From contig CM000435.1 in assembly GCA_000165345.1 (NCBI GenBank), positions 384,001-448,000 of the forward strand: DNA of 64,000 nt, read 5' to 3'. Position numbers and translations under genes: made by a program. Shown here piece by piece: positions 2,625 through 60,143 of this stretch; position 1 is the stretch's first letter; every line of letters starts with the position of its first letter. The notes beneath the pieces were generated by a model that was not told the DNA's origin, searched no databases, and saw only the letters and a list, made by a program, of their open reading frames with translations.

Positions 2625-2647
2625 TTTTGGCGGGAATATTGGCGCCA
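2625..2647. promoter_or_regulatory. Tandem E2F-like sites TTTTGGCGGGAA and TTGGCGCCA, 255-275 bp upstream of the minus-strand gene that starts at 2374.
   Basis: ttttggcgggaatattggcgccatg. Confidence 0.45.
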
Positions 2648-2774
2648 TGATGCACACTAAATTAAAAGTAGGTAAGGTATTATTTAACAAGGAAATTTTT
2701 GACAAGAAGAGAATAGGAAGGTTTTGAGGTGAAGAAGAAAGAAATAATAATAGTGGAGAGGAGTAGATATTTAA

Positions 2775-4167
2775 TTATGGGTGGAGTAGATTAAATTGGT
2801 AAGAAATGATATAGTTTAGAGCAGTAATAAAAAGCTGCATGTATGTATGTATGCATGCATGCATGCAAATAATAGTATTGTTAAATTAGGAAAGGCTTTC
2901 TTTGATTTTTATTTTTTGAATTTTTCCTGTCATTAATAATTTTGGTACACTAATAAGTAATAGATATTGTAGGAAGGTAGCAAAAACATAAGTTAGGGTG
3001 AAATGAGGAGAAAAGAAAGGATTAGACTTACTTGTTGAAGTTTAGTTCTAACCTCAATATTTTGAGGTTCTATTGTTGCAGCTTTGTATAGGTCTATTCT
3101 GGCTTCATCCGGATCATCGAGTTTGAGATATGATGATGCTCTAAGATAGAGAGCTTTGACATTATTCTAAAAAAAGTTGAGTTTTATGAATTGTTAAGTA
3201 TATATTTGAGTAAGACTTACTTTGTCTAATTTCAGGGTTTCTGTACAGTATTTAAGAACGGATTTGTACTCTTGAAGTTTGATCATACAGCTAGATGAGT
3301 AATAAATAATTTAAGTAATATGAAAAAAAGGTTAACTTACTTAGAGATATTAAGGAGTACAGAAATTTTGATAGGTTTTGAGTCATTTTGTTGTTCAGAG
3401 GTCCATTCTTCAAAGTTATCGAGATATTGGATAGAGTTTTCATAGTGAATCTTTGCAGTTTGATAATCTCCAAGGTTGTAATAATGGTTTCCAAGATTCT
3501 TAGAATCCAGAGAGAGTTGCATTCTTTGTATTGGAGAAGTAAAGACTTTTTTTGTGCTTGTGACAATATCTGGAACCTGATCCTTTTTGGTTATAGAAAG
3601 GAGTTCGACTATGATCTGGATGATTTTAAAAGGTGAGTAGTAATTATAATAGATTATAGCAATAAGGTTATTGTGGAGGAAAAATTCACTCCAAAATCAT
3701 CTCTCAAAGTAACTTACTTGAAAATTCTTAAGACAACTTTCCTCATGTTTACTTGAATCTGAGCCAATTTCTGTGCTAAAAGATGATATCTCTGAAACAA
3801 AATTTGGATCTGAGTTTTCCAAGTTTGTAATACATATAGATTCTCCTACATTGATTCCACATATCTTCTGCTCAATCTGTGGGTCAACTACACCAGATCC
3901 AATTACAAAGCTATATTCAATCTCATTTCGAACTTAAGTAGGAAAAATGGTATTGAATACAAAATAACAAAATGAGATTAATTGTTTGGAAAAGAGAATG
4001 AGTAAAAATCTTTGTAATAAATATGAACCTCCAGAGCTTTTACATTTAAACTTACCATTTGGAATTTCGGAAATGAGTGGATGATCTTTCAGAATGGTCT
4101 TGTACTTAATATTTACCAAGTCCCCAGTCTCAGGCATCCCATTATTAGGATTCTGCTCTAAAGTCAT
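2775..4167 (-). CDS. FKBP-type immunophilin with a degenerate PPIase domain, three TPR motifs and a C-terminal hydrophobic tail anchor. The architecture is FKBP38/FKBP8-like. Six-exon model: 4167..4056, 3932..3718, 3615..~3341, 3290..3221, 3166..3032, 2834..2775.
   Basis: Exon 1 reads MTLEQNPNNGMPETGDLVNIKYKTILKDH, an FKBP GDxVxxxY-like motif. Exon 2 reads EYSFVIGSGVVDPQIEQKICGINVGES. Exons 3-5 hold TPR-like motifs: LGNHYYNLGDYQTAKIHYENSIQ, CMIKLQEYKSVLKYCTETLKLDKNNVKALYLRASSYLKLDDPDEARIDLYKAATIEPQN. Exon 6 encodes LFITALNYIISYQFNLLHP followed by a stop. Every intron begins GTAAGT and ends AG in phase. The model is hand-built and the exon ends may be off by 1-2 nt. Confidence 0.5.
2837..2868. 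repeat. Tetranucleotide microsatellite (ATGT)3(ATGC)4, which is an array of overlapping TGCATGCA motifs.
   Basis: The + strand reads gcatgtatgtatgtatgcatgcatgcatgcaaat. The repeat lies inside intron 5, at the acceptor, of the FKBP38-like gene. It is also about 470 bp upstream of the minus-strand gene that starts at 2374. Confidence 0.8.
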
Positions 4168-4335
4168 TTATCCCAAGAATCAAGTAAAATCAGTGTGTGT
4201 GCGTATATTTGTACCACTCTCCGCAATTTATCCTACTTCTACACTTCTAAACTAGTCTTTTCTGTATTTTTTTCCCCAGTTATTCTTCCCTTTATAAAAT
4301 TCTTTTACCGTTACTTTTTATTTGTTTTCACGCAT

Positions 4336-4363
4336 TGCCCGCCTGGTCAAATCTTTTGGCGGG
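4336..4363. promoter_or_regulatory. CCCGCC plus TTTTGGCGGG in the 279-bp bidirectional spacer between the FKBP38-like gene and NOB1.
   Basis: cattgcccgcctggtcaaatcttttggcgggttc. Confidence 0.45.
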
Positions 4364-5661: not shown

Positions 5662-6193
5662 AAATTTTTCATTTTTCTCAGACTCGACTCAATATATTAA
5701 TCATTATGTTTTCACTGCTATTACCAGAATCCAAGGCTTAAGATAACTAAGGTTGTTTCTCAATTTTGACTCGAATATTATCAGAGAGTTTAATAGGTAC
5801 GGATTTGGAATTAGACATTTAAGACACTGTTTTTTCCTAATTTTTATTAAAGAGAAGAGCTAGAACATAAATCAAATATGCTTATAATCATAATCAAACA
5901 AAAGCCAATCTAGAATAAATATTAGCATTTTTTTCAACCCAAACTTAATTACTCTAAACTTAATTTTCCTCGTTCTATATATGCATGCAAACATTAACCC
6001 GCCAAACCCCCAACCAAACTTTGACTTATAAATTCTTCAGATTTGCATGTAACCAGTTTTACCACGTGTACTAAAAACTTCTTTAAATCAACCCCTCACC
6101 CTATAATGGTCTACCGCCCATTATGTAATTAATTCATTTTTTTTACTTTTATTGCATTTTTAAATAAGTTGGAGGCATACAAATTAGAGCACT

Positions 6194-6204
6194 TTGGCGC
6201 CAAT
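6194..6204. promoter_or_regulatory. E2F-like palindrome TTTGGCGCCAA about 180 bp upstream of AspRS.
   Basis: agcactttggcgccaattac. Confidence 0.5.
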
Positions 6205-6383: not shown

Positions 6384-8595
6384 ATGACTACAGAACCAGA
6401 GGTAAAAGAACAAGTCCTTTCAAAAAAGGCATTGAAAAAGCAAGAAAAACAAGCACTTAAAGAAGCTAAAAAGGCAGAGGCAAAGAGCAATCAGCAGCAA
6501 CAACAGCAATCAGTTCATTGGAGTTCAGTTATTGTACATTCAACTGAGGCATCTCCATATGGAGTAATTCCTTTTAATTGCAAAATTGAGAACAGGACTT
6601 TTTCAAAGATTAAGGAATTGAATTCTAACCAGAAAGGTGAGAAAATCTGGTTAAGAGGTAGAATTACGGAGTCCAGATGTAAAGGATCTTTAGGATTTGT
6701 ACTGCTCAGACAAACTTTCTATAGACTACAATTAGTTGTTGATGCTAATAATGGTAGTTCTAAGGAAATGATTAAATGGCTTGGATGCCTTCCAATTGAG
6801 AGTATGATCGATGTATATGGCACTATAGTAGTTCCAGAAACTCCAGTGGTTTCATCAACACAAGATATAGAGGTTTTAGTTGAAAGAGTTTACTGTGTCT
6901 CATCGGCTTGCAGTGAATTACCTTTCCAATTAAAAGATGCTAATAGGGTTGAAACTGAGGATGAGGATTCCACAATTATTAAAGTTCTACAAGATGTCAG
7001 ACTGGACAACAGAGTATTGGACTTGAGAACTTATTTGAGTCAGGCAATATTCAGAATTCAATCGGAAGTATGCAGATTGCTTAGGGAATTCCTCATAGAA
7101 AGAGAATTCATTGAGATTCATACTCCCAAACTTTTACCAGGTGCTTCCGAAAGTGGTGCCACTGTATTCAAAGTAGACTACTTCTCAAATACAGCTTGCT
7201 TAGCACAGTCACCTCAACTCCATAAACAAATGTCAATTTGTGGAGATTTAGAAAGAGTCTTTGAAATTGGTCCTGTTTTCAGAGCAGAAAATTCAAATAC
7301 TCACAGACATTTATGTGAGTTTGTTGGAGTTGATATTGAAATGAACATTGAAAATACTTATCATGAGTTGGTTGACGTTTTCGACGCTATGTTTAGACAT
7401 ATATTCCAAGGAATCAATACTCATTGCAAGAATGAATTACTTATTGTCTCGGAATATAATCCATTTACTCCTTTCGTCATTTCAGAAAAGACTCCACGTC
7501 TTACTTTTGAAGAAGGATGTAATCTCCTTAAGGAGGCAGGCGCTGAAATTCCAGAAGATCTGTCTGATTTTGATATTTCCACAGAGCAGGAAAGATTACT
7601 TGGTAAGTTCCATACTAAGAATTTTCTAGTAAGATTGAAAAGGGCAGGATTTGAGAAGAGCGGACATAATTTTAAATGTTATTGGACTTGAATTTCAAAT
7701 CCGTAGTTCTTTCTCATTCCTTTTGCTTATTTCATCTTACTATGATATTATTATCTATCAATTGATAATATTATAAACCTTTTTGAATATATTTAATTAT
7801 AACTAACCTAAATCATTAATTTCCTATTTAGGTTCTATTGTCAAGGAAAAATACAACTCAGATTTCTATATGATGCTTAAATATCCACTCAAAGTGAGAC
7901 CTTTTTACACAATGCCTGACTTTGATGAACCAGAGGTAAGTTAATCTTTTATTTTGCCTCCCAAGAAATATAGAAAGCTTGAAAGTATAAAATAGAGAGA
8001 AGAAACAAGGGGATTTAGGGATTTTAAGGGAAAATTGAAGATTTGCTTTCTTATTGAGGGATGATGATTGTTCATTCACCCATAGCCTGTAAACTCAAAC
8101 GTGTATTTGCACATGCGTGTAGATACAGCTACGTTTGAACCCTTGATGACAACTTTTCATGCATCACCAACTGACCTCAATATAGCTCTTCCCCATTTTC
8201 CTATACTTCCTCTACCCGCTTTTCCTCCCTTTTACTTCTCTTAGGAGCAATATAGACAGCTTGGGAGGCGTTCCCGCTTTTACATGCAAATAATTACCGC
8301 CAATTTCCCCACATTTTAGAAATGGTCCAATTCTTTTGACTTCTTTATGAGAGGAGAAGAAATATTAAGTGGAGCACAGAGAGTACATGATTACGATTTA
8401 TTAGTAAAAAGGTGCCAAGAGTGCGGTGTTTCAGAACATTCACTTAGAGACTACTTGAACTCATTCAAGCTCGGCGCTCCTCCCCATGGTGGATGTGGAA
8501 TTGGGCTTGAAAGAGTCATTATGCTCTTTTTGAATCTTGGAAATATCAGGAAGTCTTCAATGTTTCCTCGTGATCCAAAGAGACTTAGTCCATAA
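6384..8595 (+). CDS. DARS: Cytoplasmic aspartyl-tRNA synthetase of class IIb. Three exons: 6384..7602, 7832..7935, 8320..8595.
   Basis: The N-terminal K-rich and poly-Q extension is followed by an anticodon-binding OB fold. Class II motifs are present: [15 protein letters not shown], then in exon 2 [14 protein letters not shown], then in exon 3 [22 protein letters not shown]...[15 protein letters not shown]. The introns begin GTAAGT and end TTTAG. Phases are consistent at 1/1 and 0/0. Confidence 0.85.
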
Positions 8596-8599
8596 AGTC

Positions 8600-9421: not shown

Positions 9422-11944
9422 ATGGAAGAAGGATATGATTGGGACCAAATTAGCAGCTTCCAAATAGTGGATGGAATGAATATTTCAAGTTCATCATTAT
9501 TGGATGATGAGCTATTGATAACGTCGCCAGATTCATCAAATAATGGTAATAGTGTTTCATTGGAGCAAAGAGAATTCTCCAGACCAATTTGTTCGCCTCT
9601 TTCACAGTTTTTGGTAGGCTCTGACGGATCTAATTCAAAAAATGTAGGTCAGAAACATTTTTCACAACACCAACATACTAATAGTGCCGGTGGTGCTGGT
9701 GGAAGTAACTTTAACTTAAATAACAGCCATTCTTCAATTGTTGGTGAGTCTCAGCATTATGGATTACAATCTGGGTTAACAAACTCTGGAAATAATATTA
9801 GAGATAACTCAATATATAATACTGGATATCAATTTAATGATACTGAAAAGATTTCCACAACTGAAAAGGAATTTACTAAACGTAAACGTCCATATAGTAA
9901 TAATAGTAACAACAATATCAATGTTGGTAGTAACTCATCCAATAGAATTGGTAACTGTACTCAAAATAGTTTATCTGGAATTACCAGATCTGTTATGGGT
10001 ATTGGCGGAATTGGAGCAGGAGTTACAAATAACTCATTAACTAAGACTCCTAGCAAGACTCGTACCAGAAAAGTGCGAGAAAGTTCGGATGATTTTGGAA
10101 ATTCTTCAAGCGGACCGTCAGTTCATTCAAAGTCTGGCTACTCTTCAAATTCATCAGGAGAAAGTTGTTCTTTTGGCTCATCTTCAAATGTTTCTGAAGA
10201 CCTTAATTCTGTTAAGTATTATGAAGGATTTAAGCTACCTCTCGGAGACCTTGGAAGAAAAATGCTTCTTAAGAAATTGCGTGAAATACATACTCAAAAC
10301 CCAACGAAAATGGAGAAAGCTCTTACTGACCATGGACTTTCTTATACAAGAATTAGATTCGCAAGTGTCCAACAACTTTTCAAAATCTCTTATGTATGCG
10401 ATGTATTTGACTATGCTCTGAGCATACATTGTGAATTTGGAAGGCCAAGACATAGAGATTCTTCCAAAAGTGTCCAACTCTCCTCTGTAAATTCAAATTC
10501 AAATATGATGCAACAACAATCGCACTCAAATATATCATCCAGAAGAGTATTAGATTCTCAACAACATAACAATGGACTCGGTGGAGGAGCTGCAGTACAA
10601 GGAGGTATTTCTGAAAAATTTGAATCGCATTCTTCTATCGGCAATACAAATGGAGGAGTTATTCCAAGAGGACAAGGTCTTTTGGATGATTCTTCAAAAG
10701 TATTAGGAAAACTTGAGACTGATTTAGATACTTACACACCAGAAACATCCCCGTGTAGTCATCGATCATATTCCTCCAGTAAAAGTCTTTATTCAAAGGA
10801 TTCGAGCTTGATTTCTAATACACCATTAAACAAGATTGAACATGATATTACTTCACCAATTTCAATATTCTCCACTACAAGTGGTTCACCAGCCTCACAA
10901 AGAAAAAGAAGAGGATCTGCAAAGTCAAGTTATAATTTCTCACCTCCCCCTATTCCCGTTACAAACTCTCCAATACAATCAGGAGACCCAAAAGATATAT
11001 CTTCCTTGAATCCAGAGCTCTCTAACTTTATGAATAACCAGAACCTAATTAATTATAACATAATTCAAGGTAATGTATCCAATAATAATATGAATGGAAA
11101 CTCATCTGTTTCAGGATTTAGTACACAAAGTGATGTTTGTACCAGCCATTTTCCTGATCATCAGCAGCAACTTCACCATAATATTGGCCATTATAACAAT
11201 ATAAATAACCACATTCAAAATGGAGGCCGAGCTCCTCACCATCCTCCTCCTTCGTACCATAAGAAACACGAAGAACATGAACCTTTGGATTCGATGATTT
11301 CTATGAATAGCGGCTCAGATAGTGTTCTACAAAAGCCAGCAAAAAGACAAAAGATTAGGTCCAAAAAGAAGAATGCTTTGGCAGATATTAGAAGTGAGCC
11401 TCCAACACAGGCAACTTATTCTTATTCCAGCTCAACTCAGCCTGGAATAAATAATGGCTCGAGTATATTTGTCTGCGGAGATATTGATGAGATTTACTGT
11501 ACCTCAACAATTAACACTGAAGTTACCCCCTTTTACCAACCAGAATCGGAGATTGCTCACCTTGGTGAATTCGAGACATCTCATCATAGTCATAATTATC
11601 ATAACCATCACCAAGATTCAATCCATTTTATTTCTTCAACTGAATCACATGACCAGAATATTCCAATTTGTTCAGCATTTGGATCACCCTTTGATTCTTC
11701 TTTAATTATTAGCTCTTCCCTGGATACTGAAAGCTCCCAAAATTCTGGAATTATTACATGTGATAGCCCAACATCATTTTACCTGTATTCACAACCAAAT
11801 ATCTCTTCCAATTATGATGAATATATGGATTCTTCTTGTCTCAATGGATTCCTTACTCAGGGCTTAAATTCTATAGAAATGCTTAATTCGAGCGAGCTAG
11901 AAATGGACAACTTTGACATTGGATGTCCTTTAATTTCAATTTAA
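9422..11944 (+). CDS. Large low-complexity protein, S/N/G/Q-rich, with a short ordered island around residues 270-345. Function unknown.
   Basis: Intronless 840-aa ORF. Composition is dominated by Ser, Asn and homopolymeric runs. The island reads KYYEGFKLPLGDLGRKMLLKKLREIHTQNPTKMEKALTDHGLSYTRIRF. A purine-rich 5' flank precedes it. Confidence 0.55.
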   Translation: MEEGYDWDQISSFQIVDGMNISSSSLLDDELLITSPDSSNNGNSVSLEQREFSRPICSPLSQFLVGSDGSNSKNVGQKHFSQHQHTNSAGGAGGSNFNLNNSHSSIVGESQHYGLQSGLTNSGNNIRDNSIYNTGYQFNDTEKISTTEKEFTKRKRPYSNNSNNNINVGSNSSNRIGNCTQNSLSGITRSVMGIGGIGAGVTNNSLTKTPSKTRTRKVRESSDDFGNSSSGPSVHSKSGYSSNSSGESCSFGSSSNVSEDLNSVKYYEGFKLPLGDLGRKMLLKKLREIHTQNPTKMEKALTDHGLSYTRIRFASVQQLFKISYVCDVFDYALSIHCEFGRPRHRDSSKSVQLSSVNSNSNMMQQQSHSNISSRRVLDSQQHNNGLGGGAAVQGGISEKFESHSSIGNTNGGVIPRGQGLLDDSSKVLGKLETDLDTYTPETSPCSHRSYSSSKSLYSKDSSLISNTPLNKIEHDITSPISIFSTTSGSPASQRKRRGSAKSSYNFSPPPIPVTNSPIQSGDPKDISSLNPELSNFMNNQNLINYNIIQGNVSNNNMNGNSSVSGFSTQSDVCTSHFPDHQQQLHHNIGHYNNINNHIQNGGRAPHHPPPSYHKKHEEHEPLDSMISMNSGSDSVLQKPAKRQKIRSKKKNALADIRSEPPTQATYSYSSSTQPGINNGSSIFVCGDIDEIYCTSTINTEVTPFYQPESEIAHLGEFETSHHSHNYHNHHQDSIHFISSTESHDQNIPICSAFGSPFDSSLIISSSLDTESSQNSGIITCDSPTSFYLYSQPNISSNYDEYMDSSCLNGFLTQGLNSIEMLNSSELEMDNFDIGCPLISI

Positions 11945-12622
11945 CAAAGTTCATTAACTTCTCAAAAACCGTCTGTCGTTTTGATAGACATTAATTATTA
12001 CTGCAATACTCTTTTGGTAATAATGATAACCTTTTATATCCAGTTTAATCTTAACTTCGAATACTTCTTCCTCATCCAAATCAAATTAATAGTTTTTAAG
12101 CTTTTGAGATAAATAATTTATGTACATATTTCTATATTCATTACGTCATCCCGATTATTATAATGCTTTTGAAAATATTATATATTTTAATATTCAAGTT
12201 TTGGAGCAATATAAGCACTAATTTGCTGTTATTTGCTTGCGCTCTTTTCCATTGAGAGGAAACTTGAAGCTTTGAAATTTTGGTCTCCACAATTATTTAA
12301 CGATTCAGTTGCTTTGGAAGAGTTAATTAACCCTCTTCGAGGGTCAACTAATTGCAGAAAATTTCTCTTTGCCTCTGCAAAATAAAAAAAAACAAAGGCC
12401 AACACATTTTTTTGCTATTTTTTATTTTTCTCTCTTTTTTTTCATTTTTATATGTAAAATATTCATTTTTGTGAATTTTAAGCATTCCCAATTCTTAAAT
12501 TGAACGTTATTGCTTTTTAATATTTTTTTCAAGGTTTTAAGTTAAAGGGGGATACAAACCAAAGATTAAATTGTAAATCAATATTAATTTATGCTTAAAA
12601 TCGACATAGTGGAAACAAAACT

Positions 12623-13402
12623 ATGTCTGATTCACAGAAACTGGATTCCAGGTACCTGAAAATACTGATTTCAGCAATTCTAATCATTGGTCCTTGTATT
12701 CTGTACTTTATTTCAACATCAAAATGGCTTTTTATGCAACATAATTACTTGTTAATTACCTTGAGTTATATACTTTTCATAATTATGACAACTTCCATGG
12801 TATTTACGTTTTTGAAAAATCCTGGAGTAATAATATCACAATCCAAGCTCAGCAATCCACCTTGCTCCATAGATTTACAGATTAATGCACAGATTGTTAA
12901 AGTCAAGTTCTGCTCTAATTGCAAAATTATCAGACCCCCACGAACTGTTCATTGTAATATCTGCAATCATTGCGTAGATAGGTTTGATCATCATTGTCCC
13001 TGGGTAGGAACATGTATCGGTGCAGGAAACTACAAATTGTTTATGTTATTCATCTCAACACTATTTTTACTTGAACTAGCCATGCTTTTGGGGTCATGCA
13101 AAATGGTAAACCATTTTACTTACGAAGCCTCGCATATACTAAATCTGGGAAATTCTACCAAAATCTTTGTTCACACAATGAATCACTCTGCTGGAGCGGC
13201 TGTAGTTATTGGGTTTGCTTGTTTTACCATCCTATTTTCACTTTCTCTCCTTATATTCCACTTGTATATTGGCGCCATGAACAAAACTACTTATGAAGAA
13301 ATTAAAAAACTTTATAGTGAGACTTCAAATCCATGGTATTCTGGAATTTCGAGGAATATAGCTGAGTTGTTTCTAAGTCCATCTCCAAAATTTAATTATT
13401 AG
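12623..13402 (+). CDS. DHHC-type protein S-palmitoyltransferase with four TM segments and a DHHC-CRD.
   Basis: [37 protein letters not shown] is the canonical DHHC cysteine-rich domain. It is flanked by hydrophobic helices. Confidence 0.85.
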
Positions 13403-13598
13403 TGCGATGATTTGCATTAACTTTAAGTATTCTCATCAAATTGGTTGTTTAAATCAGCGCCAGACTCATCCATTTTAAGCTATTAACAGGTACTTTCATT
13501 CAAAAAGAACATATTTTAATCTTTTTTTTTCTTTAATTAAGATTTTATACTCCATTGAGAAAATTATTAATCAACCATAATAAATCATTATCAACCTT

Positions 13599-13985
13599 GT
13601 GATGGAAACCTCTTATAATGAAGAAACTGGAGAAAAAAACCTTCTTCAACTAAATCTTGCAAACCGAGTTTCTGAAAAACTTGCAAAGACTGGACTTTGG
13701 AAAAATATTAATGTAAAATGGTCACACAATATTCATTTACATATTGTTACTGCTGTTCAAATCTTATTTTCTTCCAAACAGTATCTCAAACTTTCTACCT
13801 TTATTCCTCTCAGCGATTTAGACCATATTGATTCCTCTTTTTTTGAAAATTTGCAACAAGACTCAAAAATCATTCTGCCTTATATCAACTCAAAAATTAG
13901 TCACCATTATGTTCTTGCTATTGTTAGTAGTGATGACGAACTTATACTTCAATCAGTTAACTTTGATCTTAAGAAAATTGTTTGA
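13599..13985 (+). CDS. Hypothetical 128-aa protein.
   Basis: ATG-initiated ORF 196 bp downstream of the DHHC stop. No motif recognised. Coding status is uncertain. Confidence 0.3.
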   Translation: MMETSYNEETGEKNLLQLNLANRVSEKLAKTGLWKNINVKWSHNIHLHIVTAVQILFSSKQYLKLSTFIPLSDLDHIDSSFFENLQQDSKIILPYINSKISHHYVLAIVSSDDELILQSVNFDLKKIV

Positions 13986-14296
13986 TCCCAATTTTTTTAT
14001 TCAATTACTTTAAAATTTATTATGTTTTGCCGTTTTTTTAAAAAATTTGCACAATCATATTATAATATTCTTCCACATGCAAAACATACTTGCATTACCG
14101 GTACTAAAATTATTCACTGTTAACATTTTCATCCACATGGAAAAAAGTAATTATTGCATGCAATATAAAAATAAATACACGTAATGACAGCCAAAATATA
14201 TTCAAAAAAAAGAAACTAAGGAATAAAGATTTTTCTTATATATAATTTAATTAAAAGTTTATAGCAGGGCTAGTAGTAGTTAAGGTTCAAGTTAAA

Positions 14297-14566
14297 TTAC
14301 TTTACATTTGCTAATTTTAGAATTGCTTCCTCATTCTTAAGCTCTAAATCTCTAGTGATGTACTCGAAGTCTCGTTTAATGTCGAAATTATAATCTCTTT
14401 CCAATGGAACCTGTTGAAAAGCAATGATTTAAAATAAATAGTTGAAAAAAAAAATCAAAAAGGTTCATCAATAACTTACCACGTCGTTAAGCTCGCAATC
14501 AATCTTCTCTTCCTGAATCTTCAACAACACCTTCTGAAACTTGGTTGTGGATTCCTCAGAAGTCAT
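14297..14566 (-). CDS. Small 66-aa acidic, coiled-coil-like protein. Two exons: 14566..14480 and 14410..14297. The intron is about 69 bp.
   Basis: MTSEESTTKFQKVLLKIQEEKIDCELNDV | VPLERDYNFDIKRDFEYITRDLELKNEEAILKLANVK. The donor is GTAAGTTATTG and the acceptor is TTTTCAACAG, in phase. Not in the ORF track because its exons are under 60 aa. Confidence 0.35.
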
Positions 14567-14665
14567 GAAACACCTACTTCTTGGCTTATAATTTTTAAAA
14601 ACCAAGTTTTCTTCTTTCATCTTTTACTTTAATTTTTCCCACCCTAAAAATTCTGCAAATCAGAG

Positions 14666-14676
14666 TTGGCGCCAAA
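14666..14676. promoter_or_regulatory. E2F-like palindrome TTGGCGCCAAA in the bidirectional spacer between the 14566 (-) gene and tRNase Z (+).
   Basis: gagttggcgccaaatatg lies about 140 bp upstream of the ATG at 14814 and about 100 bp upstream of the ATG at 14566. Confidence 0.5.
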
Positions 14677-14813
14677 TATGCCTAAGGTCTAAATATACAT
14701 TTTTTTTTTAATAATTAGTCAAAGAAAAAAAAAGAATATCTTCCTTGGTTTCAGTTTCCCATTCATAAAAAATCAAGGAAAAATTGGTGATAATTACATA
14801 TCTCATTTGACTA

Positions 14814-21626: not shown

Positions 21627-22297
21627 ATTTACATCTTCCCCATAGCTGTTATTTTCATAATAGATCTGGTTGTTGTATAANNTGCCCGAACTAAATTATT
21701 TCATTGAAGTNNTTCTCATTTTCTCGAGGGAAAACGTAATCAGGAATAGCATCCTCCTCCATTCTAAACTGGTTATCTTTCTTCATTATAAATAGGATCG
21801 GAAAGCTTCATAGAAATCTCAAAAGAATCCATCGTACTGCCACAATCAATATTTGAAGACATTTTCCCCCATCAACCTTTTAACCTCTATTAATATTAAT
21901 TAATAAATGTGAATATTAATTAAATTTCAGCTTCTATAAAGGCTATACTATTCTTAATACCAAAATACTTTGTACTTCGTTTCTTATATGCTTTTTACTA
22001 AGATCCCAAAAACATACATATGCATTTATAAATGTATATTTAATGTTAATTAAAACTATACTTCAATTCCATCAACACCAATAATTTTGAGGAGTAACTA
22101 GATTTAACACAAAATTTAAATTGTGAAGAATCTAACTAAGTCTGTGTTTTTACTCCTTATTTTTTCTTGGTTCTCAAAAAACTTTAATCCATATACCTTT
22201 GACTTTTTTGCCAAGCAACCTATTCTCCTCCCACGGCGCTTACATGACTAGACAAACTTAAATAGTAAGTAATATTCAAATTAACTTGATATTGTTC

Positions 22298-23561: not shown

Positions 23562-23603
23562 ATTTCTCTATATATTTATTTACATGTATTAAAAAATAAT
23601 TTG

Positions 23604-23615
23604 TTGGCGCCGAAA
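23604..23615. promoter_or_regulatory. E2F-like site TTGGCGCCGAAA about 45 bp upstream of the UNG ATG.
   Basis: ttgttggcgccgaaatgtcg. Confidence 0.5.
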
Positions 23616-24509: not shown

Positions 24510-24613
24510 CTTCTTTTAACCTACTTTCTTTTTTCCTCCCTAGACAAGAAAATAAATTTTTCTTTTATTTTAATCAATTCGTGACTATTACCCATTTATC
24601 TACATACCGGCGC

Positions 24614-24626
24614 ATTGGCGCCAAAT
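24614..24626. promoter_or_regulatory. E2F-like palindrome ATTGGCGCCAAAT about 105 bp upstream of MRT4. It is adjacent to a TACCGGCG motif.
   Basis: tacataccggcgcattggcgccaaatgtg. Confidence 0.5.
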
Positions 24627-27805: not shown

Positions 27806-27870
27806 TTTTTCCCCCTTACACTTTTTTTTCGCTATTTTTCAGTTCCAGCCTTAAAAACCCTATACATGAG

Positions 27871-27880
27871 TTGGCGCCCA
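27871..27880. promoter_or_regulatory. E2F-like site TTGGCGCCCA upstream of the 27805 (-) gene.
   Basis: gagttggcgcccaagtg. Confidence 0.45.
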
Positions 27881-28407
27881 AGTGTGGTGCTGATGGGATT
27901 AAGAAAATAATAATTAAATATTCAAAAAGCGAGAAGGAAAAAAAAACAAGGAGCTAAAATATAGAAAATCCTTTTCAAAAATTTTCTTGATGCCTCACTA
28001 ATGGACTAGTTTTATAAGTTGAGAGTCTCGCTAGTATTTACTCCGAGTTGAATCATAAGTTTCTATACAAAATATCTTGCTTATTTTACCTACAAAAGTT
28101 AACTTGGCTATCCTATTCTGTCAACATGCATGAAAAATACGCCGGTATTCAACTTGGCAAAAAATTAATTTTTTTAAATTCGAAAATTGTTAAAAAACAT
28201 TGTGGCGCTAAAACAAGTAGTGTCTAATAGTCAAAAGAGATTATTTTAAAATAAAGAAAAGGCAAAGAAGATTTTCCGGTTAAGTTTGGAGAACGAAAAT
28301 AGAGAAAATACCAGTCTTTAGGAGATCATACTAAGATACTTAAGGTTCTGGTTAATATTTTGAGTAATTATCCACTTTTGTTATAAGTGTTATATATATT
28401 TATATAT

Positions 28408-28857
28408 ATGTCAAAAGCAAAACGAGAGAGAGCAATAGTATATGTAGGCCATATTCCATTTGGATTATTTGAGCCTCAACTCAAAGAATACTTTTCTCAG
28501 TTTGGTAAGATTTTGAGGATTAAGCTGAGCAGGTCCAAGAAGAATGGTCACTCGAGAGGATATGCATTTATTGAATTTGAATCAATGGAAGTGGCTCAGA
28601 TTGCAGCCTCAACTATGAACAATTATATTATTTTTAAGAGAAGTCTCAAATGTCACGTGCTTCCTAAAGAAAGCATTCACCCATACATTTTTATTAGGTC
28701 AAAGAAGAAGAATTCTTCTGAATCTAATAATGCCTTAACTGAAGATGAAAAACAAGCAAAGATTGATAAGTCTGTTCTTTCTAAGAAAAAGAAGCTACTT
28801 AAAATCAATAAAATTCTTGAAAATAATAATATAAATTACAAGCTTCCTTCTGTGTAG
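28408..28857 (+). CDS. RRM protein of the Nop15/NIFK family, a ribosome-biogenesis RNA-binding protein.
   Basis: Canonical RRM with RNP2 AIVYVGHIPF and RNP1 RGYAFIEFE. A K-rich tail follows. The track ORF begins at a GTG at 28387, and the first ATG is at 28408. Confidence 0.7.
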   Translation: MSKAKRERAIVYVGHIPFGLFEPQLKEYFSQFGKILRIKLSRSKKNGHSRGYAFIEFESMEVAQIAASTMNNYIIFKRSLKCHVLPKESIHPYIFIRSKKKNSSESNNALTEDEKQAKIDKSVLSKKKKLLKINKILENNNINYKLPSV

Positions 28858-29119
28858 TTTTGTTATTTTATATCGTTTTTTTTATATATCTTTTTTTTCT
28901 AATTTATTATTTTTTTTTTTTCCTTTCCCATCTTGCATTTCTTTTTTCTTTCCCATCCAACTCTCTTATTCCTAATTCTTTCTTCCCAGCTCTTTCCTAC
29001 TTCTCTTTTATCCAGATTTAAGCTCTTTCTATCTCGAGCTCTCTGATTATCCAAACCAAAACTTATCCTTTATTTTTCCTCTTGAATTTATGTGGGTTTC
29101 CAAACTGTATATACCGGTG

Positions 29120-29133
29120 TTTTGGCGCCAACA
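29120..29133. promoter_or_regulatory. E2F-like palindrome TTTTGGCGCCAAC about 50 bp upstream of the NSUN2-like ATG. It lies inside the GTG-started track ORF.
   Basis: atataccggtgttttggcgccaacatc. Confidence 0.5.
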
Positions 29134-29178
29134 TCTGGTGTAAAAATAGACCAAGGAAAAGTGGGTTTATTGGTCAAA

Positions 29179-31227: not shown

Positions 31228-31310
31228 GAAAGTAGTTAAGTATTTAAGTAAATATAATATAGAATAGGATAGAATACTAAGCCTAATATATAATATTAAG
31301 CGTGAGACAT

Positions 31311-32960: not shown

Positions 32961-32969
32961 TTTCCCGCG
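32961..32969. promoter_or_regulatory. E2F-type TTTCCCGCG about 150 bp upstream of SRP54.
   Basis: caagatttcccgcgactttt. Confidence 0.45.
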
Positions 32970-33423
32970 ACTTTTCAACAAAAATTCGAGGACCCCAGAA
33001 AAGAGGTAATTTGACAACTAACAAAGAAATCTGTTTCACACGTAAAAAAGAATGTGAAAACCTTCATAAGAAATGAGAAACATAATATTTTAAGAATTAG
33101 TAAAATCTTAGCAGTAACTTGCTATAGCAGTAGTTCAAATGCGTTATCAATTCTACTCGTAATGAATGCTATTACCTATTGTTCAAAAATATACTATAAC
33201 GGCTTTACTTGAGTTACACAGGGGCTTAGAGTCACAATTCCCAGCTCACGAATTTATTCCAACACTTGCCCTCGTAAAGACCTATTGCACACTGACTACC
33301 TGAGTTTTTCTGCAAGAAAAAAGAAAGAAAGCGCCAAAATTCAATTTCCTTGTTTTAAACTGATCTACACTGACCTGACCTTACCTTACCTGATTCTATT
33401 TTAAGAAAGGGAATGGAATTTTC

Positions 33424-34458: not shown

Positions 34459-34869
34459 TTTAATATATATTTTTTAGCTTCACACAAACCGATAACATTT
34501 TGAATCAGAGCACTCAAGCGCCAGTTGCATTATCCGGTTGAAAAAATTATTAAATTTTCAACACAATTTCGTAAATGACAAAATAAATTTATTAATATTT
34601 GAGGGGAAAAATCCAAAAAAAGCGGCTCATGTACAATCTATAGATATTTTTCCTCCTTCCCATGTATTTACATATTTATTCTTAATTTATTTCTCTCTAT
34701 TGCTTGATATTTCTTCGGTCACATGTTATACCTGGTTTGTGTGAATAACCGCTCAACTTAAATAATTATTTTAATTAAATATACCTGGAGGAATTCATCA
34801 AAAAAAACAAATATATGTATATATATTATATATAAACGAATATATAAAGTTATTGCTGTTAATATAGCA

Positions 34870-38203: not shown

Positions 38204-38214
38204 TTAGGCGCCAT
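38204..38214. promoter_or_regulatory. E2F-like TTAGGCGCCAT about 100 bp upstream of exportin-7.
   Basis: ggaattttaggcgccataacccc. Confidence 0.4.
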
Positions 38215-38315
38215 AACCCCTCACAAAAAAAGCTGAAAAAAATAGAGGGAAATAGGACTACATTGGAAGCAAACGATTAAGTTAATAATTAATTCTCCAA
38301 ACGGAAGGATTTGTG

Positions 38316-41984: not shown

Positions 41985-41994
41985 GGGCGGGAAA
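41985..41994. promoter_or_regulatory. Canonical E2F site GGGCGGGAAA (TTTCCCGCCC on the other strand) about 175 bp upstream of Rab7. Overlapping TGCATG copies lie next to it.
   Basis: gcatgaatgcatgcacatg...aaacgggcgggaaactacg. Confidence 0.5.
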
Positions 41995-44264: not shown

Positions 44265-44833
44265 TTTTTTTTAATTTAATTGGACTCTTCTTCCCCCTTA
44301 TTTTCTTTTTTTCCGGATTTATTTGTTTAATTTATTGACTGACCATTTATTACATGCGCTATCATCCACTTAAAAATAATCATCGAATTATTGTCAAATT
44401 CGCATGCAGAAATTCCTTTAATGCCGGCAAAACAATTATTTAAATAATTGGATGGGGAAAGGTTTTTTGTTATTTATAAAGTGAAATTAAAAGCAAATGA
44501 TCAAAACAAACTTCAAATTGCAATATTGTCTTTTATTATACATTTCAAGTTAAACATACTTTGCTTTTGTATTTCCTTAAAAAAACGAGCCTGAACGAAT
44601 TTCTTAGATTCGTCTATATTTAAAAAATAAAATTGCATGTAACCGTTCAAAATAATTGTATAACTTGCGCGCGCTGACCATTTTGCCCCCCTCCCTATGA
44701 TTAACGCATTATCTTTTTAAGTCCCAAATATGCTTTTTGCCCTCATAGCAATAACGTCCGCTTGATTTGTATACATTTCCAAAAAAAAACCGCTTTTAGA
44801 ATTACTTCTGTAATTTGTGTACATATTGCTAAA

Positions 44834-45385
44834 ATGGAACAGCACCAACTTATGCTTCAAAATAGAATTGTTAAGACGACATTTGCTATCAAGTCAAAGG
44901 AAGCTGCAATTCAATCTGTAAGTATAATCGACTACTTTCACACTTGAAAGCCGCTTAATCCGATTATTCTTTAAAAAAACACCTTTATTCCAAAAAAAAT
45001 TCATTTAGATCGATAGTATCAGAGATGACGAAAAAGTCTATAGAGAAGTTTCTAGAATGTAAGTAAACTACCAAAACGCAATAATTAATCAATTTTACTT
45101 TGAAACTATTTAATAAACCAAATGCAGGTTTGTGCTAAATACAAAATCATCACTCAAATCACAATTACAAAAAGAATTAGACGATTTGAAAACTCTTCTT
45201 AACAAAATGAAGGTAAGTTTTATACAAAACAGAAAAAAAAAAGAAAATACAAATATCATTTTAATTAAATTCTAACTTCAAACATTTCCCGCCTCACCCA
45301 TTTTTGTTCAATCTTTTTTTTCTATAATCAATATTAGAACTTAGAAGCATCTTGGGACTCAAAGCAAAAAAAAACTAGCCAATGA
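44834..45385 (+). CDS. Small coiled-coil protein of about 88 aa, possibly a beta-type prefoldin subunit. Four exons: 44834..44917, 45009..45058, 45128..45212, 45338..45385.
   Basis: MEQHQLMLQNRIVKTTFAIKSKEAAIQS | IDSIRDDEKVYREVSR | MFVLNTKSSLKSQLQKELDDLKTLLNKMK | NLEASWDSKQKKTSQ. The first three donors are all GTAAGT. The beta-hairpin-like block DEKVYREVSRMFVLNTK sits between two helices, as in prefoldin beta subunits. The last exon is tentative. Confidence 0.35.
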
Positions 45386-46804: not shown

Positions 46805-46830
46805 CTTTCCCGCATATTTGCATGCATGCA
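46805..46830. promoter_or_regulatory. Composite TTTCCCGC plus TTTGCATGCATGCA element in the divergent H2B/ThrRS spacer.
   Basis: ctttcccgcatatttgcatgcatgcaggc. Confidence 0.45.
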
Positions 46831-58788: not shown

Positions 58789-58871
58789 AAAAATAGATTA
58801 TTATTCCATCACAAGTTTTACAAAGGAAATATATAAAAATATTGAAAATGGCGGCAAGCCCGAAAATCTTA

Positions 58872-60089
58872 TTAAATATTAGTACATTTTGAGAATCTAC
58901 ATGTTTGTTTACAACATCTGAAACCCCATTTTTTGGCCTCCAAATCGTAATAAGAGCCCCAAACTTGGGTGTGATTCGATATATATTCGTCTTCAACGTA
59001 AATTGAAGACACAAATTTTTTTGTGGTTTTTGTATTCATGCTACTAAGGTCGCCAACTGTTGTTGGCCTTTCAGTTAACTCTAACTTTGAGATGCTGGGC
59101 TGGTTATTTCTTTCATACTTTCTGGAAATTTCTTCTAGCTTCTTGAGATTGTCATTATCTTTGTTTGATATACTTGATTTATATAACATTTCTGATCTGG
59201 TCGGTAGTGCTTGTAGGTGTATACTTTCCCCTTGTTTATGTTTATTATATGCAAATGCTTCCATGAGGAGTATCTTTGACACTTCTCCAGAATTCCTAAT
59301 TGCGTTGTCTCCCCTATAGGTATTGCCAATATTTGAAGATTTGTGAAATGGATCTTCTCTCATCGATCTGCTTTTTGGGTCATAAAAAGCAGAGTTGAGG
59401 TCCAAATTACGCAAGTACTTTGCAGTATCTTCTCTAATTCTCAAATTCCTTACATTTGTCCTGGTTTTATCTGAAGAGGCACCAAAAGTTGTTTCATCAA
59501 AGTCTCCCAACTTTAGCTCATCCTTCTCATCTAATTCTTCATTCTTATCTTCAGGGTTGTTCTTGTTATTTGACAAGGACTCCTCCACTTTTTTTGCTCT
59601 TTTTTGTCTGGCAAGTTCCTCCACTGCCTCAAATTGCTCTATTATCGGTTTGTAGTCCTCGGGTCTAAAACCTCTCCATCTATCTCTCTTTTCATCTAAA
59701 TTAGTTGTTTTTCTGATTTCTGGAATTATCTCGTCTGGGCAAATATCCAAGTTATTCCACTTAGCACCTACTTTCCTTGGACGTTCCAAACAATCACGTG
59801 CCTGGTGAGTCATGGAACCACAGTTTGTGCATGCTCCTTTCCTATATTTTACATGAGCCTCTCCGAGCACTCCCTTTTTTATACCACTATCCAAGTCAAT
59901 TCTTGCCTCATCTGCCCTAAGTCTTTGGTGCTCTAAGCTGCTTTCTTGCTGATTAATATACCAAGGAGCCTTAGCAATGAACTGGGGAATATGAGGATTT
60001 AAAGCATCATCCGATGTTGTATTGGCACCTCTAACGTCATCTCTACCAATCTCCTCCGTAGCCGAGTCATCTCTTTCGTCTAAGTTCAT
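58872..60089 (-). CDS. SLU7: Pre-mRNA splicing factor SLU7.
   Basis: NPHIPQFIAKAPWY. CCHC zinc knuckle CTNCGSMTHQARDC. C-terminal HTQVWGSYYDLEAKKWGFRCC. Confidence 0.8.
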   Translation of the reverse strand: MNLDERDDSATEEIGRDDVRGANTTSDDALNPHIPQFIAKAPWYINQQESSLEHQRLRADEARIDLDSGIKKGVLGEAHVKYRKGACTNCGSMTHQARDCLERPRKVGAKWNNLDICPDEIIPEIRKTTNLDEKRDRWRGFRPEDYKPIIEQFEAVEELARQKRAKKVEESLSNNKNNPEDKNEELDEKDELKLGDFDETTFGASSDKTRTNVRNLRIREDTAKYLRNLDLNSAFYDPKSRSMREDPFHKSSNIGNTYRGDNAIRNSGEVSKILLMEAFAYNKHKQGESIHLQALPTRSEMLYKSSISNKDNDNLKKLEEISRKYERNNQPSISKLELTERPTTVGDLSSMNTKTTKKFVSSIYVEDEYISNHTQVWGSYYDLEAKKWGFRCCKQTCRFSKCTNI

Positions 60090-60131
60090 TAAAAATTTTC
60101 AAGCCTTGGCATTACTCAATTTTCAAACAAC

Positions 60132-60143
60132 TTTGGCGCCAAG
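60132..60143. promoter_or_regulatory. E2F-like palindrome TTTGGCGCCAAG about 45 bp upstream of the SLU7 ATG.
   Basis: ctttggcgccaagttcac. Confidence 0.5.

What the first reader, a model, noticed from the sequence alone, without database searches (positions are those of the whole stretch)
2625..60143. A GGCGCC-core E2F-like palindrome sits 45-270 bp upstream of almost every gene in the window
I found at least 14 instances of TTTGGCGCCAAA-type or TTTCCCGC-type elements. On the + strand the approximate positions are 2625, 2639, 4354, 6194, 14666, 23604, 24614, 27871, 28203, 29120, 32961, 38204, 41985, 46805 and 60132. Each lies in a 5' flank or a bidirectional spacer. Apart from the intronic copies at about 8260 and 45285, I did not notice copies in coding sequence. 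A single motif class shared by aaRS, ribosome-biogenesis, BER, trafficking and chromatin genes points to a global promoter grammar rather than a pathway-specific one. This grammar, together with TGCATGCA, is established knowledge for Cryptosporidium upstream regions. The organismal assignment itself is my inference.
Basis: partly seen in the sequence, partly recalled or inferred. Interest (0 to 1): 0.5.

Follow-up and report, generated by a model that had tools for sequence, protein, structure and literature searches.

The report
Known Cryptosporidium E2F-like promoter motif
The window is Cryptosporidium parvum DNA, and the GGCGCC-core motif upstream of many of its genes is real and conserved across species, but it is the E2F-like promoter element already published as the commonest upstream motif in this parasite.

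Summary
All 15 listed positions carry a GGCGCC-, GGCGGG- or TTTCCCGC-type element. GGCGCC occurs 10 times against 1.0 expected. Nine of the ten copies lie in the 13.4 kb of intergenic DNA, a density 34 times that of genic DNA, although intergenic DNA is poorer in G+C. The strict sites sit 46-268 bp from the nearest ATG. The organism guess is correct: window proteins match C. parvum exactly.

New support comes from orthologous spacers of C. meleagridis, C. ubiquitum, C. canis, C. xiaoi and C. bovis. The motif is kept at almost the same distance from the ATG, and in two spacers it is the longest invariant block.

Two corrections apply. "Almost every gene" is too strong: 16 of 30 genes have a strict site within 300 bp, or 19 of 30 if half-sites count. 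One perfect copy, at 13271, lies inside the DHHC coding sequence.

The motif equals the published C. parvum E2F-like motifs DTTGSCGCCH and TTTGGCGGGAAV (Oberstaller 2013; Xiao 2025 ATAC-seq). Binding by E2F/DP is still an inference, here and in the literature. Verdict: real, functional-looking, already known, low interest.

The parts
2626..2647 (.). Double site, TTTGGCGGGAAT followed by ATTGGCGCCA. It lies 257-268 bp upstream of the ATG (2374, minus strand) of the 931-aa hypothetical gene.
   Evidence: The same double site is present in C. ubiquitum, and a similar one in C. canis.
4338..4363 (.). Inverted pair CCCGCC ... TTTGGCGGG in the 279-bp divergent spacer between the TPR gene (ATG 4167, minus) and NOB1 (ATG 4447, plus).
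   Evidence: The pair lies 109 and 87-90 bp from the NOB1 ATG in C. parvum, C. ubiquitum and C. canis.
5998..6006 (-). CCCGCCAAA (TTTGGCGGG on the minus strand), 383 bp upstream of the class II aaRS gene and 16 bp from a TGCATGCA.
6193..6204 (.). TTTGGCGCCAAT, 186 bp upstream of the aaRS ATG (6384).
   Evidence: Orthologous copies lie at -195 in C. ubiquitum and -182 in C. canis; C. bovis has E2F-like sites at -122 and -157.
8271..8277 (+). TTCCCGC inside intron 2 of the aaRS gene, about 45 nt before the 3' splice site.
   Evidence: An E2F-like site lies at about the same offset from the ATG within the aaRS gene span of C. ubiquitum and C. canis.
13268..13277 (.). ATTGGCGCCA inside the DHHC palmitoyltransferase coding sequence (codons GGC GCC), 331 bp upstream of the next gene's ATG (13602).
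   Evidence: Identical at +646 from the ATG in C. ubiquitum and C. canis, absent in C. bovis.
14665..14676 (.). GTTGGCGCCAAA in the 193-bp divergent spacer between the cwf18-like gene (50 bp away) and tRNase Z (144 bp away).
   Evidence: It lies 148, 144, 149 and 149 bp from the tRNase Z ATG in C. parvum, C. ubiquitum, C. canis and C. bovis.
22235..22240 (.). Half-site GGCGCT, 373 bp upstream of the WSD-domain gene ATG (21862, minus strand).
   Evidence: The hexamer is present in the orthologous spacer of all five species.
23603..23614 (.). GTTGGCGCCGAA, 46 bp upstream of the uracil-DNA glycosylase ATG (23561, minus strand).
24614..24625 (.). ATTGGCGCCAAA, 110 bp upstream of the L10/Mrt4-like gene ATG (24509, minus strand).
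   Evidence: GGCGCCAA is the longest invariant run in the five-species alignment of this spacer.
27870..27881 (.). GTTGGCGCCCAA, 69 bp upstream of the Nic96/Nup93-like gene ATG (27805, minus strand), in the divergent spacer shared with the RRM gene.
   Evidence: TTGGCGCC is the longest invariant run in the five-species alignment.
28201..28212 (.). Degenerate site TGTGGCGCTAAA, about 204 bp upstream of the RRM gene ATG (28408).
   Evidence: The orthologous position carries GGCGCC in C. ubiquitum, C. canis and C. xiaoi.
29121..29132 (.). TTTGGCGCCAAC, 53 bp upstream of the NSUN2-type methyltransferase ATG (29179).
   Evidence: GGCGCC lies at -55, -56, -52, -52 and -63 in the five species.
32961..32968 (+). 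TTTCCCGC, 152 bp upstream of the SRP54 ATG (32813, minus strand).
   Evidence: present at -147 to -149 in C. parvum, C. meleagridis and C. ubiquitum, not flagged in C. canis or C. xiaoi. C. andersoni and C. muris have AGCGGGAAT at -97.
33331..33338 (-). GCGCCAAA (TTTGGCGC on the minus strand), 521 bp upstream of SRP54 and 90 bp past the stop of the KDEL-receptor-like gene.
   Evidence: Also present in C. meleagridis.
34517..34523 (.). Half-site AGCGCCA, about 60 bp upstream of the KDEL-receptor-like gene ATG (34458, minus strand).
   Evidence: The hexamer AGCGCC is present in all five orthologous spacers.
38204..38215 (.). TTAGGCGCCATA, 107 bp upstream of the exportin-7-like gene ATG (38316).
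   Evidence: GGCGCC lies at -109, -109, -108 and -109 in four species.
41986..41994 (-). GGCGGGAAA (TTTCCCGCC on the minus strand), 181 bp upstream of the Arf ATG (42170) and 30 bp from a TGCATGCA.
44667..44674 (.). GCGCGCGC (SGCGCS core) in the DMC1/prefoldin divergent spacer, 164 bp upstream of the prefoldin ATG.
45285..45292 (+). TTTCCCGC in the last intron of the prefoldin gene.
46806..46813 (+). TTTCCCGC next to TGCATGCATGCA in the histone/ThrRS divergent spacer, 360 bp from the histone ATG and 581 bp from the ThrRS ATG.
60132..60143 (.). TTTGGCGCCAAG, 48 bp upstream of the SLU7 ATG (60089, minus strand), in a 149-bp spacer.

Best explanation
These are promoter cis-elements of the known Cryptosporidium E2F-like class. 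They are short, often palindromic G+C cores (TTGGCGCCAA, TTTGGCGGGAA or TTTCCCGC) embedded in A+T-rich spacers, 50-270 bp upstream of start codons.

The most likely mechanism is recognition by the parasite's E2F/DP winged-helix heterodimers. The literature reports two or three E2F and two DP genes. Binding would mark the nucleosome-free promoter region and drive transcription of a broad housekeeping gene set. Because the site is palindromic, one copy can serve both genes of a divergent pair.

Shown here: enrichment, restriction to non-coding 5' DNA, a fixed distance to the ATG, and purifying selection across species.

Inferred: that E2F/DP is the binding factor, and that binding activates transcription.
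For: Enrichment. GGCGCC gives 10 hits against 1.0 expected, and DTTGSCGCCH matches 8 loci against 0.3. Nine of 10 GGCGCC copies are intergenic, a 34-fold density excess with p = 6e-6. An unbiased k-mer scan of the spacers ranks GGCGCCAA and TGCATGCA as the two top 8-mers.

Position. Strict sites lie 46-268 bp from an ATG. Six of the 7 GGCGCC sites in tandem spacers lie in the half nearer the ATG. Sixteen of 30 genes have a site within 300 bp, against 3.6 expected. Sites occur in four of the six 5'/5' divergent spacers and in none of the 3'/3' convergent ones.

Conservation. The motif is kept at nearly the same ATG distance in C. meleagridis, C. ubiquitum, C. canis, C. xiaoi and C. bovis. It is the longest invariant run in two spacer alignments. 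Four of 5 GGCGCC hexamers are present in all four orthologous spacers, against 334 of 4,088 other hexamers (Fisher p = 2e-4). Every hexamer with at least 4 of 6 G/C bases that is conserved in all five species overlaps an E2F-like core or a GCGCC-type half-site.

Literature. The same motifs are published as the most over-represented upstream motif in C. parvum, and E2F/DP genes are retained in Cryptosporidium alone among Apicomplexa (PMC3734150, PMC4117751, PMC12246861). The E2F motif is the dominant motif in sporozoite ATAC-seq peaks (bioRxiv 10.1101/2025.01.17.633476).
Against: No direct evidence of E2F/DP binding exists here. According to the 2025 review, none exists in the literature either.

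Eleven to 14 of the 30 genes have no site within 300 bp.

In the gastric-clade species C. muris and C. andersoni the full palindrome is absent from the two fetched 21-kb blocks, and only half-sites remain.

One perfect copy lies in coding sequence and two in introns.

The convergent-spacer control has little power: it covers 1.26 kb, where about 1.6 sites would be expected.
Confidence: 0.85

Rival explanations
1. The motif is a real promoter element but is bound by a factor other than E2F/DP, for example an ApiAP2, Myb or zinc-finger protein. On this reading the resemblance to TTTSSCGC is coincidental.
For: No binding data exist. C. muris and C. andersoni show only AGCGCCA and AGCGGGAAT half-sites, which a monomeric factor could read. 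E2F expression profiles do not track all the target clusters (PMC3734150).
Against: The sites match both published E2F-type variants, including the T-run and A-run flanks. Published protein-binding arrays of C. parvum AP2 domains recovered TGCAT, CACACA and G-box motifs. That study treats the E2F-like motif as recognised by a non-AP2 protein (PMC4117751). Cryptosporidium is also the one apicomplexan genus that keeps E2F/DP, and the one where this motif dominates upstream regions.
Confidence: 0.1
2. The element works mainly as a structural core-promoter or chromatin signal. A G+C island in A+T-rich DNA would position the transcription start or exclude nucleosomes, rather than act as a regulated transcription-factor switch.
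For: The distance to the ATG is nearly fixed across species: about -55 for NSUN2, -109 for XPO7 and -148 for tRNase Z. Some sites lie only 46-53 bp from the ATG. The motif sits in ATAC-seq open regions.
Against: Control G+C-rich 5-mers show little or no intergenic enrichment. Conservation is sequence-specific down to 8 bp, not merely compositional. This reading is also compatible with E2F/DP being the factor that opens chromatin.
Confidence: 0.04
3. The element is a 3'-end, termination or insulator signal of the upstream gene in tandem arrays, not a promoter element.
For: Most copies lie in tandem spacers, which are also the 3' flank of a neighbouring gene. Seven of 29 genes have a site within 300 bp after their stop codon. 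With the broad site definition only 7 of 14 sites lie nearer the ATG.
Against: Sites occur in pure 5'/5' divergent spacers (4338-4363, 14665, 27870, 44667, 46806) and in no 3'/3' spacer. Six of 7 strict sites lie in the half nearer the ATG. The distance to the ATG is conserved, not the distance to the stop.
Confidence: 0.01

Closest known systems
C. parvum E2F-like upstream motifs: motif 3 DTTGSCGCCH and motif 4 TTTGGCGGGAAV (Oberstaller, Joseph and Kissinger 2013, PMC3734150). The motif was noted earlier in non-coding DNA of chromosome 6 by Bankier et al. 2003.
   Same: The sequences are identical. Eight loci match motif 3 exactly, and 2626-2637 matches motif 4 with one mismatch. The location is the same: upstream spacers of genes from many functional classes. 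TGCATGCA (AP2_1) co-occurs, as published.
   Different: Nothing essential differs. This window adds a local view: the ATG distance and its cross-species conservation. The papers read here do not report those.
Canonical E2F/DP binding site TTTSSCGC of animals and plants (Zheng et al. 1999 structure; Arabidopsis TTTCCCGCC and TTTGGCGGG).
   Same: The SGCGCS or GGCGGG core has T-rich and A-rich flanks. Ten exact TTTSSCGC matches occur against 1.47 expected. The sites lie close to the promoter.
   Different: In animals and plants the site marks mainly cell-cycle and DNA-replication genes. Here it marks more than half of all genes, including tRNA synthetases, ribosome biogenesis, trafficking and splicing genes. 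Rb-type partners are reported absent from C. parvum. Binding has not been shown.
E2F motif in open-chromatin peaks and in spacers within polycistronic transcripts of C. parvum (Xiao et al. 2025, bioRxiv 10.1101/2025.01.17.633476).
   Same: Many copies here lie in very short tandem spacers: 149 bp before SLU7, 279 bp before UDG, 287 bp before L10 and 321 bp before NSUN2. That matches the kind of inter-gene spacer that the paper reports as E2F-rich.
   Different: No transcript or ATAC-seq data were available here. Whether these particular genes belong to polycistrons is unknown.

Membership tests
Published C. parvum E2F-like upstream motif family (motifs 3 and 4 of PMC3734150) | Sequence matches DTTGSCGCCH or TTTGGCGGGAAV, with core SGCGCS or GGCGGG. 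| tested here: met
   DTTGSCGCCH matches 8 loci (12 strand matches) against 0.30 expected. TTTGGCGGGAAT at 2626 has one mismatch, and three more GGCGGG-type sites have two. The motif-4 pattern with two mismatches is not enriched as a whole: 13 hits against 8.9 expected.
Published C. parvum E2F-like upstream motif family (motifs 3 and 4 of PMC3734150) | Lies in non-coding DNA upstream of genes and is over-represented there. | tested here: met
   Nine of 10 GGCGCC copies are intergenic, a 34-fold density excess with p = 6e-6. The intergenic count is 9 against 0.23 expected from an order-1 model. Sixteen of 30 genes have a site within 300 bp, against 3.6 expected.
Published C. parvum E2F-like upstream motif family (motifs 3 and 4 of PMC3734150) | The source organism is Cryptosporidium parvum. 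| tested here: met
   Five proteins match C. parvum Iowa II and ATCC entries exactly. A stretch of 22,292 bp is identical to CP141124.1.
Functional cis-regulatory element (general criterion) | Purifying selection: conserved in orthologous non-coding DNA where the flanks have diverged. | tested here: met
   Searches show conservation in five other species of the intestinal-type clades. The motif is the longest invariant run in two spacer alignments, and the hexamer test gives Fisher p = 2e-4. Conservation is only partial, as half-sites, in C. muris and C. andersoni.
Genuine E2F/DP binding site | Matches the TTTSSCGC consensus. | tested here: met
   Ten exact matches against 1.47 expected. Nine are intergenic and one is intronic.
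Genuine E2F/DP binding site | Cognate E2F and DP proteins are encoded by the organism. | not testable with these tools
   No E2F or DP gene lies in this window (Pfam scans). The literature reports two or three E2F and two DP genes in C. parvum.
Genuine E2F/DP binding site | Physical occupancy or in-vitro binding by E2F/DP. | not testable with these tools
   This needs ChIP, CUT&RUN or protein-binding arrays. The 2025 review states that most regulatory components lack functional validation.

The most novel reading that the evidence does not exclude
The E2F-like site may be more than one transcription-factor site among many. In the intestinal-type Cryptosporidium clades it could be a position-locked core-promoter determinant. 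Its distance to the ATG is held within a few bp in species whose NSUN2 proteins are 62-88% identical to C. parvum's, and GGCGCC persists nearby in C. xiaoi (43%). The gastric clade (C. muris, C. andersoni) would use a half-site version. Conserved copies inside a coding sequence (DHHC, +646) and inside an intron (aaRS) would mark internal or alternative promoters of the kind invoked for monocistronic transcripts within polycistrons.
Probability: 0.25. Interest if true: 0.4.

Novelty: already known. Interest (0 to 1): 0.15.

Why it matters

Biologically, this motif is the main clue that Cryptosporidium, unlike other apicomplexans, relies heavily on E2F/DP rather than only on ApiAP2 factors. That point is already in the literature.

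The modest addition here is the footprint across species. The ATG distance is nearly fixed, and the motif is practically the only conserved G+C-rich block in the spacers examined. This supports function and picks out good candidate promoters for reporter tests, such as the cwf18/tRNase Z, TPR/NOB1, L10 and NSUN2 spacers.

Tried and rejected
Convergent-spacer control. No sites occur in the five 3'/3' spacers, but these total only 1,259 bp, where about 1.6 sites would be expected. The control is therefore uninformative on its own.

Position within tandem spacers. With the broad site definition, 7 of 14 sites lie nearer the ATG (p = 0.6), so there is no signal. Only the strict GGCGCC set shows a bias, 6 of 7.

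Motif 4 with two mismatches is not enriched: 13 hits against 8.9 expected. Only exact GGCGGG/CCCGCC cores are, with 6 intergenic and 2 genic (p = 1.6e-3).

Deep conservation in the gastric clade. The C. andersoni (L009) and C. muris (L010) blocks show no full palindrome, only half-sites upstream of SRP54, Nic96 and the histone gene. Synteny is also broken in C. muris, so six of the sites could not be compared.

Non-coding RNA as an alternative content of the long spacers and introns: Rfam at gathering thresholds and ARAGORN found nothing.

Chance or composition artefact is rejected. Dinucleotide shuffles never reach the observed counts. Control G+C-rich 5-mers show little or no intergenic excess.

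Only this window and ten orthologous loci were available.
Full report
**Observation**

There are eight TTGGCGCC-type palindromes or near-palindromes, at 2639, 6194, 14666, 23604, 24614, 27871, 29120 and 60132. One has weaker flanks (38204, TTAGGCGCCATA) and one is degenerate (28203, GTGGCGCTAAAA). Five are of the GGCGGG or TTTCCCGC type, at 2625, 4354, 32961, 41985 and 46805.

The counts are far above chance.
- GGCGCC: 10 hits against 1.0 expected from dinucleotide-preserving shuffles, with none of 100 shuffles reaching 10.
- TTTSSCGC: 10 against 1.47.
- TTTCCCGC: 4 against 0.55.
- TGCATGCA, the companion motif: 16 against 0.8.

**Organism**

Five window proteins (DMC1, SRP54, ThrRS, NOB1, SLU7) are exact matches to Cryptosporidium parvum Iowa II and ATCC entries. 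Window 37391-59682 is base-for-base identical to C. parvum chromosome record CP141124.1. Elsewhere the window differs from that record by occasional substitutions and small indels. The closest SRP54 relatives outside the genus are chromerids, gregarines and other apicomplexans.

**Gene map**

Public gene calls on the same C. parvum record were transferred to window coordinates. Three gene ends were corrected using C. meleagridis orthologues. The result is 31 genes, 50.6 kb of genic DNA and 13.4 kb of intergenic DNA.
- tRNA synthetases: ThrRS and a class II D/K/N-type enzyme.
- Ribosome and RNA biogenesis: NOB1, an L10/Mrt4-like protein, tRNase Z, NSUN2.
- Base-excision repair: UDG and endonuclease III.
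- Trafficking and transport: SRP54, a KDEL-receptor-like protein, Arf, exportin-7, Nic96.
- Chromatin and others: a histone, a WSD protein, SLU7, DMC1.

**Where the motif lies**

Nine of the ten GGCGCC copies are intergenic: 0.67 per kb against 0.02 per kb in genes, a 34-fold excess with binomial p = 6e-6. Intergenic DNA is nevertheless poorer in G+C, 27.8% against 34.8%. An order-1 Markov model of the spacers predicts 0.23 copies where 9 are seen. An unbiased k-mer scan ranks TGCATGCA and GGCGCCAA as the two most over-represented 8-mers in the spacers. Control G+C-rich 5-mers show little or no such bias.

The strict sites lie 46-268 bp from the nearest ATG. Six of the seven GGCGCC sites in tandem spacers lie in the half nearer the ATG. 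E2F-like sites occur in four of the six divergent 5'/5' spacers (TPR/NOB1, cwf18/tRNase Z, Nic96/RRM, DMC1/prefoldin and histone/ThrRS are the ones carrying them, the last with a distant copy) and in none of the five convergent 3'/3' spacers. Those convergent spacers total only 1.26 kb, so their emptiness proves little on its own.

**Corrections to the finding**

"Almost every gene" is too strong. Sixteen of 30 genes have a strict site within 300 bp upstream, against 3.6 +/- 1.7 for random placement, and none of 5,000 trials reached 16. The count rises to 19 of 30 if half-sites such as AGCGCCA or GCGGGA are allowed, and to 21 of 30 anywhere in the upstream spacer. DHHC, the 90-aa gene, the SAXO-like gene, the 98-aa gene and the LCCL gene have none. 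Several of these carry TGCATGCA instead.

The two copies described as intronic are indeed intronic: 8271 lies in aaRS intron 2 and 45285 in the last prefoldin intron.

**Evidence for function: conservation across species**

Orthologous, fully syntenic blocks were fetched from C. meleagridis, C. ubiquitum, C. canis and C. xiaoi using an NSUN2 anchor. Further blocks came from C. ubiquitum, C. canis and C. bovis using a DHHC anchor. The motif is retained at nearly the same distance from the ATG.

| Gene | Distance upstream of the ATG (bp) | Species compared |
|---|---|---|
| NSUN2 | 55, 56, 52, 52, 63 | C. parvum, C. meleagridis, C. ubiquitum, C. canis, C. xiaoi |
| XPO7 | 109, 109, 108, 109 | the first four of those |
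| L10 | 108, 108, 100, 122, 165 | all five |
| Nic96 | 68, 64, 69, 67, 108 | all five |
| tRNase Z | 148, 144, 149, 149 | C. parvum, C. ubiquitum, C. canis, C. bovis |
| aaRS | 190, 195, 182 | C. parvum, C. ubiquitum, C. canis |

The TPR/NOB1 inverted pair lies 109 and 87-90 bp from the NOB1 ATG in three species.

In five-species alignments the surrounding spacer has largely diverged. GGCGCCAA is the longest invariant run upstream of L10, and TTGGCGCC is the longest in the Nic96/RRM spacer.

In a hexamer test over eight spacers, 4 of 5 C. parvum GGCGCC copies are present in all four orthologous spacers. The figure for other hexamers is 334 of 4,088 (Fisher p = 2e-4). Every hexamer with at least 4 of 6 G/C bases that is shared by all five species overlaps an E2F-like core or a GCGCC-type half-site. 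That list includes half-sites upstream of the WSD gene (22235) and the KDEL-receptor-like gene (34517).

In the more distant gastric-clade species C. andersoni and C. muris the two fetched blocks contain no full palindrome. Only half-sites remain: AGCGGGAAT at -97 of SRP54 in both, AGCGCCA at -57 and -117 of Nic96 in C. muris, and TTTGCCGCGCC at -77 of the histone gene in C. andersoni. Conservation is therefore strong within the intestinal-type clades and partial beyond them.

**Mechanism**

The sites fit the canonical E2F/DP consensus TTTSSCGC and its palindromic high-affinity form. The best-supported model is that Cryptosporidium E2F/DP heterodimers bind these sites in the nucleosome-free region just upstream of transcription starts. 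They would drive a broad housekeeping gene set, with one palindromic copy able to serve both genes of a divergent pair.

What is shown here is enrichment, restriction to 5' non-coding DNA, a fixed position and purifying selection. What is inferred is the identity of the binding protein and the direction of regulation. No E2F or DP gene lies in this window.

The alternatives are less likely. They are a different binding factor, a purely structural G+C signal, and a 3'-end signal. Sequence-specific conservation, unenriched control G+C k-mers and presence in 5'/5' spacers all argue against them. Published AP2 binding arrays recovered other motifs, and that study treats the E2F-like motif as recognised by a non-AP2 protein.

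**Comparison with what is known**

This is established knowledge.
- Oberstaller et al. 2013 (PMC3734150) reported E2F-like motif 3 (DTTGSCGCCH) and motif 4 (TTTGGCGGGAAV) as the most over-represented upstream motifs in C. parvum. They occur upstream of 161 of 200 co-expression clusters spanning RNA processing, transport, repair and ribosomal genes. The paper noted that E2F/DP genes are retained in Cryptosporidium but not in other apicomplexans.
- In this window, eight loci match motif 3 exactly.
- Bankier et al. 2003 had already seen the motif in non-coding DNA of chromosome 6 (cited).
- Oberstaller et al. 2014 (PMC4117751) and a 2025 review (PMC12246861) repeat the point. The review stresses that functional validation is lacking.
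- Xiao et al. 2025 (bioRxiv 10.1101/2025.01.17.633476) found the E2F motif to be the dominant motif in sporozoite ATAC-seq peaks and in spacers within polycistronic transcripts.
- TGCATGCA is the published AP2_1 motif.

**Verdict**

The quantifier is overstated: the figure is about 55-65% of genes, not almost all. The feature is already known. The cross-species footprint and the near-fixed ATG distance documented here strengthen the case for function but do not change the picture. Interest is low.

Noticed in passing
window 2852-2867, 5982, 14155, 22416, 35574, 37652, 37833, 41955, 45498, 46819-46830, 50008, 57204 (one genic copy at 25157): TGCATGCA, the published AP2_1 motif, gives 16 matches against 0.8 expected. 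Twelve of 13 merged loci are intergenic. Unlike the E2F-like sites, two copies lie in 3'/3' convergent spacers (14155, 45498). Several genes without a nearby E2F-like site carry it instead: LCCL at -183, the 98-aa gene at -285, the hyp90/SAXO spacer, and WSD at -561. That pattern hints at two promoter classes.
   Followed up: partly
window 13268-13277 (DHHC coding sequence); L011 and L012 at about 10647: A perfect ATTGGCGCCATG lies in the DHHC coding sequence (codons GGC GCC ATG), 331 bp upstream of the next gene's ATG. It is identical at +646 in C. ubiquitum and C. canis and absent in C. bovis. It could be an embedded promoter element for the 127-aa gene downstream, or simply a conserved Gly-Ala-Met.
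   Followed up: partly
window about 7937-8318 (aaRS intron 2): The class II aaRS gene has a mini-exon and a second intron of about 380 nt, which seems long for this compact genome. The intron holds promoter-like elements: TTCCCGC at 8271, CCGCCAA at 8297 and several CATGCA. An E2F-like site lies at about the same offset from the ATG in C. ubiquitum and C. canis. Rfam finds no RNA gene there. It might be an internal or antisense promoter.
   Followed up: partly
window 24575-24590, 28225-28240, 29140-29150, 23565-23575, 38240-38255: An ATAG-containing element (TAATAGTCA, AAATAGAC, TATATAGAG) lies 20-45 bp downstream of the E2F-like site towards the gene in 6 of 17 promoters. ATAG is invariant in the L10 and UDG spacer alignments across five species. 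It may be an initiator or transcription-start element.
   Followed up: partly
window 4338-4363; L011 1843-1870; L012 2246-2276: The TPR/NOB1 divergent spacer carries an inverted pair, CCCGCC then GGCGGG about 20 bp later. The pair is kept at the same spacing and the same distance from the NOB1 ATG (109 and 87-90 bp) in three species.
   Followed up: partly
L010 (C. muris) 11495-19495, compared with window 24797-32813: Synteny breaks in C. muris. After SRP54 comes a 2.2-kb stretch with no ORF of 100 aa or more, so no NSUN2 gene was found there. Then come a P4-ATPase, the RRM gene and the Nic96-like gene. In the six other species examined the order is SRP54, NSUN2, RRM, Nic96.
   Followed up: no
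window 17250-17279: The tRNase Z gene (plus strand, ends 17279) and the 1,536-aa WSD-domain gene (minus strand, ends 17250) overlap by 30 bp at their 3' ends. In C. ubiquitum the two genes abut, with 1 bp between them.
   Followed up: no
window spacers generally, for example 27882-27890: CATGTGGA occurs 5 times in intergenic DNA against 0.14 expected and never in genes. AAGTGTGG directly flanks the Nic96 E2F-like site and is largely conserved across five species. It may be related to the published G-box-like TGTGGGG motif.
   Followed up: no
window 58789-58871 and 60090-60238: Some tandem spacers are extremely short: 83 bp between the SLU7 stop and the ATG of the 451-aa gene, and 149 bp between the P4-ATPase stop and the SLU7 ATG. 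Each still holds an E2F-like site 48-66 bp from the ATG. This fits either very compact promoters or the published polycistronic transcription.
   Followed up: no
window 17954 and elsewhere before 37391: The window is not identical to assembly GCA_035232765.1. The first difference is a substitution at 17954, and small indels shift the WSD and UDG gene ends by 1-2 bp. The window therefore comes from another C. parvum isolate or assembly.
   Followed up: no
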